Of a stretch of 49,995 nucleotides of DNA, positions 4,008 through 46,916 are shown one piece after another. The first letter of the stretch is position 1. Every line of letters begins with the position of its first letter. Position numbers and translations under genes: made by a program. Below the pieces are notes generated by a model. The model was not told the DNA's origin. It did no database searches and saw only the letters and a list, made by a program, of their open reading frames with translations. Origin of the DNA: a phage; the sequence record NC_105507.1. One strand, given 5' to 3'.

Positions 4008-4044
4008 TCAATAACACGAGATGGCTTTTAATAGCGGAGAAATG

Positions 4045-4773
4045 AAAATGGCTAAAGATATTTTAGATAAAGACACCCATGACGCATTTGTTAGCTTTGA
4101 GCAGTTGGAGAGAGAAACGTTTATAGGAAATGCTCTTGCAACTGGAGGCCATTACCAGGCAGTAAAGCCAAATCAATATTATAAGGTAAGCGGCAACCGA
4201 TACGCTGGAATCACTACGCCGGACGTTGTGCGCGATATGTGGAGCACACCTCAAGAGATCGTGGAGTGGATGGAATCAGAATTTGGCGAATACGATCTCG
4301 ACGCGGCAGCAAGCCAGGAAAACGCAGTTTGCGAGAAGTTCTATAGCAAGGAAACAAACTGCTTAAAGCGTTGGTGGGGTAGCAACAAGCACGTATGGCT
4401 TAACCCGCCGTACAGCAACCCAACTCCATTTATCAAGAAAGCAATTGAGCAAATGGAGCACAACAACCAAATTGATGTTTTGTTGCCATCCGACAACTCT
4501 ACAGCATGGTTTTATGAGGCGCAGAAAAACGCGGCTGAAATCATCTGGATCACTGGCGAGGTTTACGAAGAGGGGGGAGTGGAATATTCCCGCACCGGAA
4601 GAATCGCCTTTGTGTCTGGATTGACTGGCGAGCCTGTACAGGGCAACAATAAGGGAAGCGTGATTTTTGTCATGCGCAAACTTAAAGAAGGCGAGGAGCA
4701 GAAAACGCGATACGTTAAGATCAGCGATATTTGCCCCTCTGTAACCGAACGCCGCGCGCGCAAACGGAGCTAA
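4045..4773 (+). CDS. dam: DNA N6-adenine methyltransferase (Dam-like)
   Basis: NPPY catalytic motif (WLNPPYSNP); GGAG RBS before ATG 4045 (track ORF starts at ATG 4021). Confidence 0.8.
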   Translation, partial: KMAKDILDKDTHDAFVSFEQLERETFIGNALATGGHYQAVKPNQYYKVSGNRYAGITTPDVVRDMWSTPQEIVEWMESEFGEYDLDAAASQENAVCEKFYSKETNCLKRWWGSNKHVWLNPPYSNPTPFIKKAIEQMEHNNQIDVLLPSDNSTAWFYEAQKNAAEIIWITGEVYEEGGVEYSRTGRIAFVSGLTGEPVQGNNKGSVIFVMRKLKEGEEQKTRYVKISDICPSVTERRARKRS

Positions 4774-8487: not shown

Positions 8488-8809
8488 CGCCCATCTCCCC
8501 TATTCTAGCAATATCCCTGATCCAGTCGTTGCGCATACCATCCAGGCTATACAATTCGAATCCGAAAGGCCGCTTTGACGATCCTTTGGACCAGTATTTA
8601 CCGCAGACCCCATCTATATAGCCAGCCGTCATCATTCTTGCGCAAAATTCCTTAGATGCAAGGCTGGCGAACATTCGCGGCGTAAGTCCGGCGGCCCGTG
8701 CGAGCCGCTCACATTCTCTATGCTGATAGATAAATTTGGCTATGTGCTGCCTGTTAAACCAGTCGTATGACTCACACCATTTATACAGATCAAGCAAAAA
8801 CATAATCAT
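8414..8809 (-). CDS. hypothetical protein
   Basis: ORF tightly coupled to upstream 526-aa gene. Confidence 0.55.
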   Translation of the reverse strand: MIMFLLDLYKWCESYDWFNRQHIAKFIYQHRECERLARAAGLTPRMFASLASKEFCARMMTAGYIDGVCGKYWSKGSSKRPFGFELYSLDGMRNDWIRDIARIGEMGDDELFQAKANRQDLEALRRKFNIT

Positions 8810-10386
8810 CCCAGCAGTATTGGATTGACAAAAATAACACCATTAATCACACAAACATAATTTCTTTCTTCCAGCATTGGCAGCAAGTGCCCTTCTATCC
8901 TCTTCATTACGCCAGCCTGACCAACGAAAGGTTTTACCTTTCTCGCTGATTCGTACAGGGCGCGAATATTCAGAATCCCTTTATTAGCCTTGCCGTGTCT
9001 AGTGATCAATTCAATCAATTTGCCCATTTCAGCATCATCACCAGCATAACCAGAAGCATTGGCGGCGCTAATGTATGTTTTGCTCAATTCCTGAAACATG
9101 ATCAACGCCTCTTGCATTGTTTCCACGTCGATCTCTTTCGACTTCTGCGGGTATCCAGCAGGATTAAACCAGTTGCGGATAACATGCAGGACGGAAGCAA
9201 GCCTGATCACCTGTTTATCCATTTTACCCAGCGCACCGCGTAACATTGTATGAGAATACTTTCCGCCGTCTGCAAGATGCGGTTCCATATCCTGGCGAGC
9301 AATGTTGAGCACTCGCATAGCTGAGCGGCTTATTTTCAGCGATATATTTGATTCGCTCATGATGTTATGCACCAATTGATAATATTGGGCCTTCAATTCA
9401 GGATCCACCGCCTCATAGGTAGAATCACCATTTTCATCAATGAATGAGCGACGGCCTAAGAATGATTCCTCACGGACCAACAAAAAGCGCTCACTCACAC
9501 CGATACCGCGCGATCCAGCGTCCATGATTCCGCTTATCGTTTCATCCTGGGCTATAACGCTCATACATCCAAGCGCGCGAAAACTCATGTTATTGTCAGC
9601 ATTAGCACGGGCAATTGATACGTGACCATTATCCCACGCCTTAAGCACTAGCTCGCTGTTAGTCTTCCTTTCGCTATTGGCATAGGTCAAGCCTAACAGG
9701 CTGTTAATACTTGTTGCTTCGTCAGATATTACGGCAAAGTTACCTTGCTTGTTGTTGATTTTCGCCAAGCCTTCTGGAGTTGTATCTGAAACAGGAAAAG
9801 TTATATCACACATTTTTTCCAGCTTTTCCTCCAGATCCTCTTTTTCCTGGTATAGAGATTCCATATCAGCGCCGGATCTTTCGCTTTTCATCTCCTTTGC
9901 AAGACCTGCCAGCTTTGCCTGTATTTTCTTTCTTTCCTTGCGGCGTTGCTCGTTGATCTTCTCAACTTCCGCAATCATCGGAGCAATAGCCATGCTGTTG
10001 ATCGCAGATTTACCAGTTGACGGCGGCTGGCTTGTAACGACGTAAAGCGCAGTCGGCTGATCGGTTCCGTGATAGTCAACCGTAAAGCGTCCAAGCATAG
10101 CGGCAGAAATGCAGCCGATAAAGTGCATGTAAGCCGATGATTCAGGGAATTGAACGGATCGCGCAATGCTGCGTGATAACTTGCCGACAACATCAATATC
10201 ATTACCAAGAGAAATAACGGGGTAGCGATCGTGACCGCTATTCACATCCTTTACGTCGCCCCAAAAGCTGGACGACTGGCGATAGCCGTTAGCCTGAATT
10301 GATACGCGAACTGGCGAAAGGTTCTGGCTTTCAGCCATAGCGATTATTTGTTGTGGAGTTAATTTGTTCGTTTCTAATGAAAACAT
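8806..10386 (-). CDS. P-loop NTPase-like protein (SF3-helicase-like Walker A/B), function unknown
   Basis: PPSTGKS Walker A-like and FAVISDEA Walker B-like segments, coiled-coil insert; AAGGAG RBS. Confidence 0.6.
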   Translation of the reverse strand: MFSLETNKLTPQQIIAMAESQNLSPVRVSIQANGYRQSSSFWGDVKDVNSGHDRYPVISLGNDIDVVGKLSRSIARSVQFPESSAYMHFIGCISAAMLGRFTVDYHGTDQPTALYVVTSQPPSTGKSAINSMAIAPMIAEVEKINEQRRKERKKIQAKLAGLAKEMKSERSGADMESLYQEKEDLEEKLEKMCDITFPVSDTTPEGLAKINNKQGNFAVISDEATSINSLLGLTYANSERKTNSELVLKAWDNGHVSIARANADNNMSFRALGCMSVIAQDETISGIMDAGSRGIGVSERFLLVREESFLGRRSFIDENGDSTYEAVDPELKAQYYQLVHNIMSESNISLKISRSAMRVLNIARQDMEPHLADGGKYSHTMLRGALGKMDKQVIRLASVLHVIRNWFNPAGYPQKSKEIDVETMQEALIMFQELSKTYISAANASGYAGDDAEMGKLIELITRHGKANKGILNIRALYESARKVKPFVGQAGVMKRIEGHLLPMLEERNYVCVINGVIFVNPILLG

Positions 10387-10414
10387 TCGTTAGCTTCTCC
10401 TTTGTGGGCCGTAA

Positions 10415-10457
10415 ATTTTAACGGCCCAATACTACCCCGTTTTGTCAAAAAGTGCTA
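10415..10457 (-). promoter_or_regulatory. TAGCAC-box promoter-like cassette
   Basis: box variant containing TTGACA; TAAAAT in loop of GGGCCGT/ACGGCCC hairpin at 22-bp spacing. Confidence 0.55.
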
Positions 10458-10676
10458 TTTGATCCGCTCTATTGCAACCAGAAGTCGATCAGGCTGGCGG
10501 TCGCTGTAGCATTCTCCTGTAATCCCATCCTTAAACGTAAAGTAAAGCGCCTTATGATATGAAAAACCAATCAGCCAACCTACCGCCGTTTTTTTGATGG
10601 GCCTGACTATATCGCCAGGATTGAAAGTCTTTGTGGTAGAATGCGTTACTTTGTAACGGTTTTCACTGTTTATCAC
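10455..10676 (-). CDS. hypothetical protein
   Basis: ORF in leftward early cluster. Confidence 0.5.
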   Translation of the reverse strand: MINSENRYKVTHSTTKTFNPGDIVRPIKKTAVGWLIGFSYHKALYFTFKDGITGECYSDRQPDRLLVAIERIK

Positions 10677-11059
10677 AGATATTTGCCCTCAAACAGATAA
10701 CAGCCGCCAGCAGAGAATCCGACCTCTTCACGGTACAGGTTCCAGCGGTCGCCGCACTCATCAAAAACATAACCCGCAACGCTTCCAAGCGGTCGCCCTT
10801 TCTCGATCTGGTATCGCTTGCCCTGCTTAAAGTGCTTTTTACACGGCATGTTATGATCTACAAACGTGCAAAGAACGGTCTTTGTGTTAATGGCGCGGTA
10901 ATCATCTCTGTTTGCTGGAAGCCAACGGCTACCCTTAACAAGCGTCTTAACCTGGAACTCTTCCAACTCGATCACATCATTACTTCCTGCAATCTTCTGA
11001 TAAACCGTTTTAAAACGGCCTTTCATCAATACGTTGGTTTCATTACAGATAACATTCAT
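10673..11059 (-). CDS. hypothetical protein
   Basis: ORF with GGAG RBS downstream of box cassette. Confidence 0.55.
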   Translation of the reverse strand: MNVICNETNVLMKGRFKTVYQKIAGSNDVIELEEFQVKTLVKGSRWLPANRDDYRAINTKTVLCTFVDHNMPCKKHFKQGKRYQIEKGRPLGSVAGYVFDECGDRWNLYREEVGFSAGGCYLFEGKYL

Positions 11060-11088
11060 GATTAGATCTCCTTTGTTTGTTCGATGTG

Positions 11089-11131
11089 ATTATGCCAGGT
11101 TTTTACACCTGGCTTTTAACAAAAAGTGCTA
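11089..11131 (-). promoter_or_regulatory. TAGCAC-box promoter-like cassette
   Basis: box, GCCAGG/CCTGGC hairpin, CATAAT. Confidence 0.55.
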
Positions 11132-11837
11132 TTTTGAGTTTGACTCAAATACGGCGCGAGCAAATCCGCGCGGAGTGAGGGAGCGGATCATCTTTGTGCG
11201 TGATGAATTGCCGCCAGTTTTGGCCCAGCCTGGATTATCTTTGTCTTTCTCTTTCGGCAGGATTAAAGCACGTGGAGGAATAACAAAGCCGTTGCCAGTC
11301 CAGAGGCATGTTTTCTTAAAGTAGCGATCCCGCGCCGGAATAATATCAGGGAAGTCGGGATGTTTATCATCTTCCGGCAGATAGCCAGCGTAATCGCACG
11401 GATGGAACGTATAATCAGGTTTTCGCCATAACGTTGACAACTTGCCAACCGGATTTTCGATCATGTAAGGAACACCGAAATAATCAGCTATATCAGCCGC
11501 GATTCTGCAAGTGTCGGCGGCCTCATCCTGGAACGATGGATTCTCAAGGCGTTTTTTGGCCCAATGGCGAGATCCGCTATTTGCAAGGTCGGTGCAAGGA
11601 GGGAACGCCATAATAAAATCAGGATTGCCCCACTCATTATTGATTGCCTTAACATAAAAAGCATCATCAATCCAGACGTTAACGTATTCGATATTCTCAT
11701 GCTGTATGCGCACTGACTGGTAATCACCGTGATCGCCGCCGTCAGCATTAAAGCAAATGCACTTATATCCATTATCAGCCCAATCTTTAACGGCTTTACC
11801 AGATCCATCAAATAGGGAGAATATTAAACCTTTATAC
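11129..11837 (-). CDS. SAM-dependent DNA methyltransferase-like protein (cytosine-5 type motifs)
   Basis: FSLFDGSG (motif I-like), FPPC (PC dipeptide), ENP (ENV-like); start set to second ATG after GAGG. Confidence 0.45.
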
Positions 11838-11849
11838 ATCGTCATTACC

Positions 11850-12074
11850 TCAAAACGGAAAACAGCGCGGACAACCAGGATCGAAATCGCATCCACAATC
11901 ATTAACAATCATAGTGGGATCTGCAAATATTGCGCTTGATTCAAGATCCATATCCATATCACCTAAAGCCTCATCAAGACTCTTAATTTTATATGCCACT
12001 TCAAGCGCCGCCTCTTTATTTAGTCCGGCATCTTCTGCCATTTGAAGGCGCTCAAAAAATCCGTCTTGACTCAT
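11850..12074 (-). CDS. acidic small protein with C-terminal Cys cluster
   Basis: D/E-rich 74-aa ORF ending CGCDFDPGCPRC. Confidence 0.5.
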   Translation of the reverse strand: MSQDGFFERLQMAEDAGLNKEAALEVAYKIKSLDEALGDMDMDLESSAIFADPTMIVNDCGCDFDPGCPRCFPF

Positions 12075-12187
12075 CGCATAATCCCCTTAATAACAGCCAA
12101 GATAATAGCCAGGCCAGCAGCAGTAACCAAAAAGCCAACCGCGCCAATAATCGAATAAAAAAAGAAATCAATAGCCTTATCTATCAT
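12071..12187 (-). CDS. small hydrophobic membrane peptide (38 aa)
   Basis: below track cutoff; ATGA stop-start overlap with downstream gene. Confidence 0.35.
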   Translation of the reverse strand: MIDKAIDFFFYSIIGAVGFLVTAAGLAIILAVIKGIMR

Positions 12188-12228
12188 TTCCACCTCATTT
12201 AAAAGGCGGCAAAACGCCGCCATATTAA

Positions 12229-12456
12229 TTAAAGAGCACGCCAACTTTGAATATAGAAAGCGTTTTCTTCCAGTAATTCTTTTAACTGATCTCTATTGTA
12301 TTTGCGCACCTTACCGCCTGGATGGATACCAATAAGATAGCCGCCTTTGCCCTCGGTGATAGTGATTTGGCTAATTCCGCAAGACTTATCAAGTTTTACA
12401 GCCACGCGGTGATGAGCGTCAATAGTTGCCATAATGTTTAAAACTTTTGCTTTCAT
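12229..12456 (-). CDS. hypothetical protein
   Basis: ORF in leftward early cluster. Confidence 0.5.
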   Translation of the reverse strand: MKAKVLNIMATIDAHHRVAVKLDKSCGISQITITEGKGGYLIGIHPGGKVRKYNRDQLKELLEENAFYIQSWRAL

Positions 12457-12564
12457 TTAAATATCCTCAATTGAAATATGAATGGCGCCGTGCTCTTTTT
12501 CCGTCGCCGCCGTAATGGTCATTTGCAGCCGATACCATCCAGGCATTTTTGAAAATAAATAGCC

Positions 12565-45763: not shown

Positions 45764-46420
<657 letters not shown>

Positions 46421-46463
46421 TAAACGGGGCGCTTGCGCCCCTTTTGTCATAGGAGAAAACAAA

Positions 46464-46916
46464 ATGCACGTTATTACAGGTGAGATTCGAAAAGAGCCAA
46501 AAGTAAAGCAAATGCCTAACGGCAGCACGCTATATGTTATTGAGCTTTCCGAGCGATACAAAGACCGAGAAGGAAATTGGCAGTATACAAACTATGTGTT
46601 TTTCTTTAACGCGAAAACAGACGGCCTGAATGGTTGGTATGCCGAGGCGTTCCAGGTAGGCAAGGTTGTTTCTGTTTCCTGCGATACCTTGCGAGTTGAA
46701 ACGCGAGAATACAACGGAAAGATTTACAGCACCGTGCAGCCTGGCGGATTTGCAAACTTGCTATTTAGCCAGAGAGGTGAAAGCCAGCAACAATATCAGC
46801 AGCGAACGCAAGGAGGATGGGGGCAACCACAACAGCAACAGCAACAAAATACTCAACAGCAGCCGCAGCAAAGCAATCAGCCTCCGATTGACTTTGACGA
46901 CGATATACCATTCTGA
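46464..46916 (+). CDS. ssb: single-stranded DNA-binding protein
   Basis: OB-fold-like N-terminus, Gln-rich linker, acidic tail DFDDDIPF; start ATG 46464 after GGAGAAAACAAA RBS. Confidence 0.9.
   Translation: MHVITGEIRKEPKVKQMPNGSTLYVIELSERYKDREGNWQYTNYVFFFNAKTDGLNGWYAEAFQVGKVVSVSCDTLRVETREYNGKIYSTVQPGGFANLLFSQRGESQQQYQQRTQGGWGQPQQQQQQNTQQQPQQSNQPPIDFDDDIPF

What the first reader, a model, noticed from the sequence alone, without database searches (positions are those of the whole stretch)
11129..12074. Second methyltransferase-like gene beside an acidic Cys-rich protein
In addition to the Dam-like enzyme, the early cluster encodes a roughly 236-aa protein with FxGxG, a PC dipeptide and an ENV-like triplet in the order expected for cytosine-5 methyltransferases, though too short for a standard target-recognition domain. 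The adjacent 74-aa protein is strongly acidic with a C-terminal CxCx5CxxC cluster, as seen in DNA-mimic anti-restriction proteins.
Basis: inference. Interest (0 to 1): 0.55.

Follow-up and report, generated by a model that had tools for sequence, protein, structure and literature searches.

The report
Known phage Dcm methylase plus small acidic protein
The larger gene is a compact DNA cytosine-5 methyltransferase already annotated in T1-like coliphages, and a near relative is known to set off the bacterial retron Ec86 defence; the small acidic neighbour is a conserved protein of unknown function with no evidence that it is a DNA-mimic anti-restriction protein.

Summary
On the minus strand, 11129-11839 encodes a 236-aa protein with FDGSG, PPC and ENP in the order expected for a cytosine-5 methyltransferase. 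ORF74 (11850-12074) encodes a 74-aa protein with net charge -11 and a C-terminal CxCx5CxxC cluster.

The window is a T1-like Drexlerviridae phage, 98.9% identical to phages ityhuna and JLBYU01.

The DNA-mimic reading of ORF74 is not supported. It has no profile or fold match, its structure model is weak, and its Cys cluster is missing in some genera. What the family keeps is an N-terminal helical domain, an acidic linker and a C-terminal [I/F]-P-[F/W]. That ending resembles the tip of the phage's own SSB (DFDDDIPF), which is a speculative lead only.

The parts
11129..11839 (-). dcm-like gene: a 236-aa compact DNA cytosine-5 methyltransferase (711 bp including the stop codon)
11798..11812 (-). 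Motif I, FDGSG (residues 10-14): the AdoMet-binding loop that follows strand beta-1
   Evidence: Invariant or nearly invariant in alignment A1. Follows strand E5-9 in the model. Aligns with motif I of DNMT3B, M.HaeIII and M.HhaI.
11594..11602 (-). Motif IV, PPC (residues 80-82), with the catalytic Cys82
   Evidence: P81 and C82 are invariant. Aligns with the PC of DNMT3B and M.HhaI. C82 is one of the four residues changed to alanine in the K42 Dcm mutant, which lost both retron triggering and 5mC formation.
11450..11458 (-). Motif VI, ENP (residues 128-130), equivalent to ENV
   Evidence: E128, N129 and P130 are invariant and lie at the end of strand E125-129. E128 is mutated in the K42 Dcm mutant.
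11165..11185 (-). Motif IX-like segment, RSLTPRG (residues 219-225)
   Evidence: R219, S220, L221, T222, P223 and R224 are invariant. The likeness to the R-x-L-T-x-R-E motif IX of C5 methyltransferases is my own inference from memory of the family.
11848..11851 (-). GAGG Shine-Dalgarno sequence of dcm, overlapping the TGA stop of the 74-aa gene
   Evidence: Read from the sequence. Two K42 escape mutants carry a C-to-A change 9 bp upstream of the dcm start. In KarlJaspers this position falls inside the same GAGG.
11850..12074 (-). ORF74: a 74-aa acidic protein of unknown function, conserved in Drexlerviridae (phrog_9323)
   Evidence: ORF. phrog_9323, E 3e-36, no known function. 448 phage records carry a relative, and every one listed in the output is about 50 kb or a smaller fragment of a T1-like genome. 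84% identical to KarlJaspers bas06_0056.
11862..11897 (-). CxCx5CxxC cluster (residues 60-71), a probable zinc knuckle
   Evidence: Present in 110 of 114 full-length relatives. Absent from the Tunavirus and Nouzillyvirus members. Zinc binding is inferred, not tested.
11853..11861 (-). C-terminal F-P-F (residues 72-74)
   Evidence: The [I/F/M/V]-P-[F/W] ending is kept at or next to the C-terminus in nearly all of 74 metagenomic loci, with or without the Cys cluster. Only the SSB-like ORF and one apparently non-coding reading frame in the window end the same way.
4021..4773 (+).
   Evidence: Pfam PF05869, E 7.7e-61.

Best explanation
Window 11129-11839 (minus strand) encodes a compact, single-domain, AdoMet-dependent DNA cytosine-5 methyltransferase. 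It is the Dcm-like enzyme common to T1-like (Drexlerviridae) phages and many other enterobacterial phages.

Proposed mechanism (inferred from the family): Cys82 of the PPC motif attacks C6 of a flipped-out cytosine, Glu128 of the ENP motif protonates N3, and the methyl group is transferred from AdoMet held by the FDGSG loop. The likely benefit is that phage DNA is marked with 5mC, reportedly at CCWGG, so it is protected from EcoRII-type restriction whichever host the phage last grew in.

The known cost is that the same activity methylates the msDNA of retron Ec86 (Eco1) and switches that abortive-infection system on.

The upstream 74-aa gene (11850-12074) is a separate, conserved small acidic early protein. 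It has an N-terminal helical domain, an acidic linker, a probable zinc knuckle and a terminal FPF. Its stop codon overlaps the dcm Shine-Dalgarno sequence, so the two genes may be translationally coupled. Its function is unknown, and it is not needed for Dcm activity.

What is shown here: the fold, the motifs, and orthology to the KarlJaspers gene. What is shown elsewhere: 5mC formation and retron triggering by phage K42 Dcm. What is inferred: the CCWGG specificity, the protective role and the operon coupling.
For: - Locus identity: the window is 98.9% identical to Drexlerviridae phages in which this gene is annotated as a DNA or dcm methylase.
- Family: phrog_757 'DNA methyltransferase', E 1e-84. 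About 3030 relatives in the protein database and 1497 phage records.
- Motifs: FDGSG, PPC, ENP, K175-K176 and RSLTPRG are invariant or nearly so.
- Weak but specific sequence links: PDB sequence and profile searches return only C5 methyltransferases, namely DNMT3B and M.HaeIII, at E about 0.1. In addition, 13 of 33 homologues hit Pfam PF00145 below threshold.
- Fusion: one relative is fused to a D12-class Dam domain.
- Orthology: 89% identity with no gaps to KarlJaspers bas06_0055, 'Dcm-like C5 cytosine methyltransferase', in the same gene order.
- Experiment: all four phage K42 escapers of retron Ec86 hit the 711-bp dcm. Expressing Dcm alone was toxic only when the retron was present. LC-MS showed 5mC on the msDNA, and this was lost in the C82A/E128A/K175A/K176A mutant. 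Published as Wang et al., Cell Rep 2024 (cited).
- Site frequency: CCWGG is not depleted in the window, at 126 observed against 123 expected from a Markov model.
- ORF74 is dispensable for Dcm: Dcm worked alone from a plasmid, and dcm loci in Dhillonvirus, Vequintavirus and Webervirus NJR15 have no ORF74 relative next to them.
Against: - The protein itself gives no Pfam or NCBIfam hit.
- The hhalign comparison with M.HhaI covers only motifs I-IV, with a low reported probability and E 0.059.
- The segment where a target-recognition domain should be is only about 30-35 residues, so how the enzyme reads a sequence is unclear.
- In the preprint, CCWGG specificity was assumed by analogy with E. coli Dcm and supported only by msDNA mutants. 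msDNA from dcm+ MG1655 carrying the empty vector had little 5mC. The phage enzyme's substrate or site preference may therefore differ from that of host Dcm.
- The BASEL study found no simple link between methyltransferase genes and restriction resistance in Drexlerviridae.
- No methylation data exist for this particular phage.
Confidence: 0.92

Rival explanations
1. The 74-aa acidic protein is a DNA-mimic anti-restriction protein of the Ocr, ArdA or Arn type. It would work alongside Dcm to defeat host restriction.
For: Net charge -11 and pI 4.05. The gene lies among small genes in the minus-strand cluster that also holds dcm and a DUF3987 putative helicase. It lies immediately upstream of dcm in most Drexlerviridae genera, with a gap of 7-23 nt in most of the 74 metagenomic loci.
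Against: No match to any Pfam family, including Ocr and ArdA, even at E up to 10, and none in NCBIfam or by PDB profile search. The structure model has pLDDT 68 and pTM 0.37, with only three short helices, and has no Foldseek hit better than E 6. A Cys cluster is not a feature of known DNA mimics (my own knowledge). KarlJaspers carries an 84%-identical copy, yet BASEL reports that most Drexlerviridae, apart from Bas04 and Bas05, are very sensitive to restriction-modification systems, sometimes including type I.
Confidence: 0.08
2. ORF74 is a partner or regulator of Dcm, for example a zinc-knuckle specificity or targeting subunit that makes up for the missing target-recognition domain.
For: The two genes are tightly linked: the ORF74 stop codon overlaps the dcm Shine-Dalgarno sequence. 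The gene pair is conserved across Warwickvirus, Hanrivervirus, many Webervirus and other lineages. The Dcm region where a recognition domain would lie is unusually short.
Against: K42 Dcm alone, expressed from a plasmid, methylated msDNA and triggered the retron. More than 1000 phage records have the Dcm homologue against 448 with ORF74. Dhillonvirus, Vequintavirus and Webervirus NJR15 have no ORF74 relative next to dcm. In Tunavirus-like contigs, dcm either lies about 2.2 kb on the other side of the ORF74 relative or is not found within the fetched flanks. The acidic charge argues against DNA binding.
Confidence: 0.1
3. ORF74 uses its acidic tail, which ends in [I/F]-P-F, as a copy of the SSB C-terminal tip. 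With it, the protein would engage or block host proteins that normally dock on SSB.
For: The phage's own SSB-like ORF ends in ...IDFDDDIPF. SSB-Ct (DDDIPF) is the conserved docking peptide of SSB (PMC5872125). ORF74 ends in ...CDFDPGCPRCFPF. The Cys-less relatives end in ...KFDDGIPF (ESCO41) and ...DDNDDDYIPW (SH6). The x-P-[F/W] ending is kept across nearly the whole family whether or not the Cys cluster is present. Only 3 of 579 stop-to-stop reading frames of at least 40 codons in the window end this way.
Against: Webervirus members carry one extra residue (IPFW, VPFL), which would bury the terminal Phe carboxylate. A few relatives lack the PF ending altogether. In the window protein the tail is embedded in the Cys cluster rather than in a free acidic peptide. 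There is no experimental or structural support, and a short motif can arise by convergence or chance.
Confidence: 0.12
4. The 236-aa protein is not a plain DNA methyltransferase. It might be an inactive relic, an RNA or tRNA m5C enzyme like Dnmt2, or an enzyme that adds a larger group such as carboxymethyl.
Against: All catalytic motifs are invariant across thousands of relatives, which argues against a relic. LC-MS detected 5-methylcytosine on DNA for the K42 enzyme, and this depended on C82, E128, K175 and K176. One relative is fused to a Dam DNA methyltransferase.
Confidence: 0.04

Closest known systems
Dcm-like C5 cytosine methyltransferase of Escherichia phage KarlJaspers (Bas06, bas06_0055) and its strain K42 (Hzau42), the trigger of retron Ec86/Eco1
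   Same: Same length (236 aa, 711 bp). 89% identical with no gaps. The same C82, E128, K175 and K176. The same GAGG Shine-Dalgarno sequence. The same neighbours: the 74-aa ORF upstream, and 128-aa and 73-aa ORFs followed by a helicase downstream.
   Different: Different genus: the window matches Warwickvirus, while KarlJaspers is a Hanrivervirus. There are 25 substitutions, mostly in residues 23-70 and the 192-236 tail. No experiment has been done on this allele.
Canonical bacterial and eukaryotic C5 DNA methyltransferases (Pfam PF00145: E. coli Dcm, M.HhaI, M.HaeIII, DNMT3A/3B catalytic domain)
   Different: About 90-240 residues shorter. It fails the Pfam gathering threshold. The segment between motifs VIII and IX is only about 30-35 residues. 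Motif VI reads ENP rather than ENV. The protein ends right after motif IX, without a clear GN-type motif X.
Ocr (T7 gp0.3) and ArdA DNA-mimic anti-restriction proteins
   Same: ORF74 is small, strongly acidic and encoded among small genes of a lytic phage.
   Different: No sequence, profile or fold similarity. ORF74 carries a Cys4 cluster and is mostly predicted to be coil beyond three short helices. Phages that carry it are reported to be restriction-sensitive.
SSB C-terminal tip (DDDIPF) of E. coli SSB and of this phage's own SSB-like protein (window 46413-46916)
   Same: An acidic stretch followed by a hydrophobic-Pro-aromatic C-terminus. Relatives without the Cys cluster read FDDGIPF and DDDYIPW.
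   Different: ORF74 has no OB fold. In the window protein the tail lies inside a Cys cluster. Some genera add a residue after PF. This is a resemblance only and has not been tested.

Membership tests
DNA cytosine-5 methyltransferase (Dcm-like; PF00145 superfamily) | Motif I, F-x-G-x-G, the AdoMet-binding loop after strand beta-1 | tested here: met
   FDGSG at residues 10-14. G12, S13 and G14 are invariant; F10 and D11 are at least 90% conserved. It follows strand E5-9 and aligns with motif I of DNMT3B, M.HaeIII and M.HhaI.
DNA cytosine-5 methyltransferase (Dcm-like; PF00145 superfamily) | Motif IV, Pro-Cys, with the catalytic cysteine | tested here: met
   P81 and C82 are invariant and align with the PC of DNMT3B and M.HhaI. 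Among the four residues changed in the inactive K42 quadruple-alanine Dcm mutant.
DNA cytosine-5 methyltransferase (Dcm-like; PF00145 superfamily) | Motif VI, E-N-V, with the glutamate that contacts the target cytosine | tested here: met
   E128, N129 and P130 are invariant, giving ENP in place of ENV, at the end of strand E125-129.
DNA cytosine-5 methyltransferase (Dcm-like; PF00145 superfamily) | Motif VIII (Q-x-R-x-R) and motifs IX and X | tested here: inconclusive
   R170-D171-x-Y173-x-K175-K176-T177 comes before strand 177-182, and RSLTPRG (219-225) is conserved. These look like motifs VIII and IX, but I matched them by pattern only. There is no clear GN motif X, because the protein ends at residue 236.
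DNA cytosine-5 methyltransferase (Dcm-like; PF00145 superfamily) | Class I methyltransferase fold that is closest to C5 methyltransferases | tested here: met
DNA cytosine-5 methyltransferase (Dcm-like; PF00145 superfamily) | Passes the curated Pfam PF00145 or NCBIfam thresholds | tested here: not met
   No hit for this protein even at E up to 1. 13 of 33 homologues hit PF00145 at a best E of 1.3e-4, while none of the 120 relatives listed carries a precomputed Pfam domain. This is a divergent subfamily that the curated model does not capture.
DNA cytosine-5 methyltransferase (Dcm-like; PF00145 superfamily) | A target-recognition domain between motifs VIII and IX | tested here: inconclusive
   Only about 30-35 residues (about 183-215) lie there. 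They include the conserved P188 and G209-G210 but have lower model confidence (pLDDT 73-86). This is far shorter than in bacterial enzymes.
DNA cytosine-5 methyltransferase (Dcm-like; PF00145 superfamily) | Catalyses 5-methylcytosine formation in DNA | not testable with these tools
   Shown by LC-MS for phage K42 Dcm, whose closest sequenced relative, KarlJaspers, is 89% identical to the window protein. Not measured for this phage.
DNA-mimic anti-restriction proteins (Ocr, ArdA) | Strong net negative charge | tested here: met
   16 acidic against 5 basic residues, pI 4.05. The family ranges from -5 to -16.
DNA-mimic anti-restriction proteins (Ocr, ArdA) | Sequence or profile membership in a known mimic family | tested here: not met
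   No Pfam hit at E up to 10 for 9 diverse members. No NCBIfam hit. No PDB profile hit better than E 3.4. The PHROG families it matches have no known function.
DNA-mimic anti-restriction proteins (Ocr, ArdA) | A rigid fold that displays carboxylates in a DNA-like array | tested here: inconclusive
   The model is weak (pLDDT 68, pTM 0.37), and there is no structural match.
DNA-mimic anti-restriction proteins (Ocr, ArdA) | Protects unmodified DNA from type I restriction | not testable with these tools
   Indirect evidence points the other way. Most Drexlerviridae in BASEL are very sensitive to restriction-modification systems, sometimes including type I, and KarlJaspers carries an ORF74 copy.
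SSB C-terminal-tip-like peptide | An acidic run ending in hydrophobic-Pro-Phe at the free C-terminus | tested here: inconclusive
   The window protein ends in DFDPGCPRCFPF. Relatives end in FDDGIPF or DDDYIPW, but Webervirus members end in IPFW or VPFL and a few lack PF.

The most novel reading that the evidence does not exclude
The 74-aa protein belongs to an uncharacterised Drexlerviridae family made of a helical N-domain, an acidic linker, an optional zinc knuckle and a terminal [I/F]-P-[F/W]. It may imitate the SSB C-terminal docking peptide and so hijack or block host proteins that bind SSB, rather than mimicking DNA. A smaller open point is that the minimal Dcm may recognise DNA differently from host Dcm, for example in hairpin or single-stranded contexts or with relaxed specificity. 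That would explain why it methylates retron msDNA when host Dcm does not.
Probability: 0.12. Interest if true: 0.6.

Novelty: already known. Interest (0 to 1): 0.25.

Why it matters
The methyltransferase matters because this enzyme family is both a likely anti-restriction tool and the signal that retron Ec86/Eco1 detects. Recognising it in a genome therefore helps predict sensitivity to that defence, but this is published knowledge.

Two points remain open:
- How a 236-aa enzyme with almost no target-recognition domain selects its site.
- What the conserved 74-aa acidic neighbour does.

Neither open point rises above a lead on the present evidence.

Tried and rejected
- Pfam and NCBIfam scans of both proteins found nothing.
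- PDB sequence and profile searches gave only marginal C5-methyltransferase hits for Dcm, at E about 0.1-0.6, and nothing for ORF74.
It is too weak to use on its own.
- The ORF74 structure model had low confidence and its Foldseek search found nothing, so no fold assignment was attempted.
- The idea that the small ORF upstream of dcm is the same gene everywhere was rejected. In Webervirus NJR15 and Tunavirus Shfl1 the upstream ORFs are unrelated, at 18% and 16% identity.
- The 259-aa reading from the TTG at 11908 was rejected as the start. It overlaps ORF74, and homologues together with the Shine-Dalgarno sequence support the ATG at 11839.
- The published Cell Reports paper could not be read because it is not held. 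I relied on the preprint and on citations of the paper.
- Searches for methylome data on Drexlerviridae, and for reports of phage proteins that mimic SSB-Ct, found nothing relevant.

Full report
**What is there**

The interval 11129-12074 holds two minus-strand ORFs.

The first ORF is open from a TTG at 11908 (259 aa). Its real start is almost certainly the ATG at 11839, giving 236 aa and 711 bp with the stop codon. Three observations support this:
- Homologues begin at that position.
- A GAGG Shine-Dalgarno sequence sits 9-12 nt upstream.
- The longer reading would overlap the neighbouring gene.

The second ORF, ORF74 (11850-12074), encodes 74 aa. Its TGA stop overlaps the dcm Shine-Dalgarno sequence.
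- In the 236-aa protein: FDGSG (10-14), PPC (80-82) and ENP (128-130).
- In ORF74: a net charge of -11, pI 4.05, and C60-x-C62-x5-C68-xx-C71.

**Where the window comes from**

Megablast of 10400-12500 gives 98.9% identity over the full length to Escherichia phages ityhuna and JLBYU01 (Drexlerviridae, Tempevirinae, Warwickvirus). It also matches dozens of other T1-like phages. In those records the larger gene is annotated as a DNA, dcm or cytosine methylase.

**The 236-aa protein is a compact C5 DNA methyltransferase**

Curated profiles miss it: there is no Pfam or NCBIfam hit. It does match phrog_757, "DNA methyltransferase", at E 1e-84.

The family is large. There are about 3030 relatives in the protein database and 1497 phage records. 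These span Drexlerviridae, Dhillonvirus, Vequintavirinae, phAPEC8-like phages, Salmonella phage 7-11 and even Arthrobacter phages.

In an alignment of 33 relatives (54-82% identical to the window protein), the following are invariant or nearly so:
- FDGSG, PPC and ENP
- R170-D171, Y173 and K175-K176-T177
- R219-S-L-T-P-R224

Sequence links to solved structures are weak but specific:
- Only DNMT3B and M.HaeIII are returned, at E about 0.1, aligned over motifs I-IV.
- 13 of 33 homologues touch PF00145 below threshold.

The AlphaFold2 model is confident (pLDDT 90.4, pTM 0.88). Its best structural matches are C5 methyltransferases:
- The top 30 Foldseek hits are all DNMT3A/3B or 3g7u, at E 2e-6 to 5e-5.

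One distant relative is fused to a D12-class Dam domain, which also fits a DNA-modifying role.

Only about 30-35 residues separate the motif VIII-like strand from the motif IX-like helix. It is also notable that DNMT3, which I recall as having the smallest recognition domain among known C5 enzymes, is the closest fold.

**This enzyme is already characterised**

A 2023 preprint (10.1101/2023.08.16.553469) studied phage K42, a strain of KarlJaspers. It was later published as Wang et al., Cell Rep 2024, 43:114857 (cited). Its main findings were:
- All four escapers of retron Ec86 disrupted a 711-bp dcm gene, or a base 9 bp upstream of its start.
- Dcm expressed alone was toxic only in cells carrying the retron.
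- LC-MS found 5mC on the retron msDNA, and this was lost in a C82A/E128A/K175A/K176A mutant.
- Changing the CCTGG in the msDNA stem abolished defence.

I fetched KarlJaspers (MZ501090). Its bas06_0055, annotated "Dcm-like C5 cytosine methyltransferase", is 236 aa and 89% identical to the window protein with no gaps. C82, E128, K175 and K176 are all conserved, and the flanking gene order is the same.

In KarlJaspers, position -9 falls inside the same GAGG. The escape mutation therefore weakens dcm translation and leaves the ORF74 coding sequence untouched. This is my inference from the preprint's description and the Bas06 sequence.

CCWGG is not avoided in the window: 126 sites are observed against 123 expected from a Markov model. 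That is compatible with self-protection.

Two caveats apply:
- CCWGG specificity was assumed by analogy with host Dcm. msDNA from dcm+ MG1655 carrying the empty vector had little 5mC, so the phage enzyme may differ from host Dcm in substrate or site.
- BASEL found no simple link between these methyltransferases and restriction resistance.

**The 74-aa protein**

ORF74 matches only PHROG families of unknown function. Relatives occur in 448 phage records. Every record listed in the output is about 50 kb or a smaller fragment of a T1-like genome. The profile search found about 200 database clusters.

Across genera the conserved parts are as follows:
- An N-terminal domain of about 46 aa (A13, A16-G17-L18, E21, V26-A27, L33, A36-L37-G38, M40, M42, E45-S46).
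- A variable acidic linker.
- A C-terminus ending in [I/F/M/V]-P-[F/W].

The Cys cluster is present in 110 of 114 full-length database relatives. It is absent from the Tunavirus group (...DDNDDDYIPW) and from Nouzillyvirus ESCO41 (...KFDDGIPF). It is therefore not the invariant core of the family.

In 74 IMG/VR loci, the Cys-containing form usually sits 7-23 nt upstream of dcm, and sometimes 110-245 nt upstream. In the Tunavirus-like contigs, dcm lies about 2.2 kb on the other side or is not found in the fetched flanks.

Dcm loci in Dhillonvirus, Vequintavirus and Webervirus NJR15 have no ORF74 next to them. K42 Dcm also works alone. ORF74 is therefore not an obligatory subunit of Dcm.

**Is ORF74 a DNA mimic?**

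Apart from its acidity, nothing supports this:
- No Pfam hit at E up to 10 for nine diverse members.
- No PDB profile hit.
- A weak model with three short helices and a coil tail (pLDDT 68).
- No fold match.

KarlJaspers carries an 84%-identical copy. Yet most Drexlerviridae are reported to be very sensitive to restriction-modification systems, sometimes including type I. I put this reading at about 8%.

**A lead, not a finding**

The phage's own SSB-like ORF (46413-46916) ends in ...IDFDDDIPF, the canonical SSB C-terminal docking peptide (PMC5872125). ORF74 ends in ...CDFDPGCPRCFPF, and its Cys-less relatives end in FDDGIPF and DDDYIPW. Only three of 579 stop-to-stop reading frames of at least 40 codons in the window end in [IFLMV]-P-[FW]: the SSB-like ORF, ORF74 and one apparently non-coding frame.

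This suggests that ORF74 may present an SSB-tip-like tail. Against it, Webervirus members add a residue after PF, a few relatives lack PF, and nothing has been tested. I give it about 12%.

**Verdict**

The methyltransferase interpretation is supported but already known. The DNA-mimic interpretation is unsupported. Overall interest is low. The remaining interest lies in the function of ORF74 and in how such a small enzyme chooses its target.

Noticed in passing
whole window: CCWGG is not avoided: 126 sites observed against 123 expected from a Markov model and 68 from base composition. CCSGG is strongly depleted: 5 observed against 20.7 and 55 expected. This would fit Dcm protecting CCWGG sites but not CCSGG sites from enzymes that cut CCNGG.
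   Followed up: no
window 46413-46916 (+): An SSB-like ORF just downstream of the ERF recombinase gene ends in ...PPIDFDDDIPF. This is the same C-terminal docking tip as E. coli SSB, so the phage SSB probably recruits host SSB partners. It gave no Pfam hit at E up to 0.001.
   Followed up: partly
window about 11094-11113: A 7-bp hairpin, GCCAGGT-gtaaaa-ACCTGGC, is built from two CCWGG sites and lies about 16 nt after the dcm stop. No U-run follows it. In a 66-nt RNA context that also contains a second small hairpin, the predicted fold is -15.3 kcal/mol.
   Followed up: partly
L001 7451-7675 (JLBYU01_20); also phages Motto, MMBB and Domnhall: Several GenBank records label the 74-aa ORF 'putative cytosine DNA methylase'. 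It has no methyltransferase motif, so the name seems to have been copied from the neighbouring gene.
   Followed up: yes
phage collection, records MG0656xx: Roughly 20-39 records named 'Campylobacter phage' (host C. jejuni) carry sequence nearly identical to T1-like and rV5-like coliphages. They are probably mislabelled or contaminated deposits.
   Followed up: no
protein P0334 (563 aa): A natural fusion of the compact Dcm-like domain (residues 1-177) with a D12-class N6-adenine methyltransferase domain (residues 303-546).
   Followed up: partly
window 12205-12221 (-): A GC-rich terminator-like hairpin, GGCGGCGTTTTGCCGCC followed by TTTT, lies between the 75-aa ORF (12229-12456) and the run of a small ORF, ORF74 and dcm. 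It may mark a transcription-unit boundary or an attenuator.
   Followed up: no
window 8806-10386 (-): The ORF annotated 'putative helicase' downstream of the dcm cluster matches only Pfam DUF3987 (E 6e-44).
   Followed up: no
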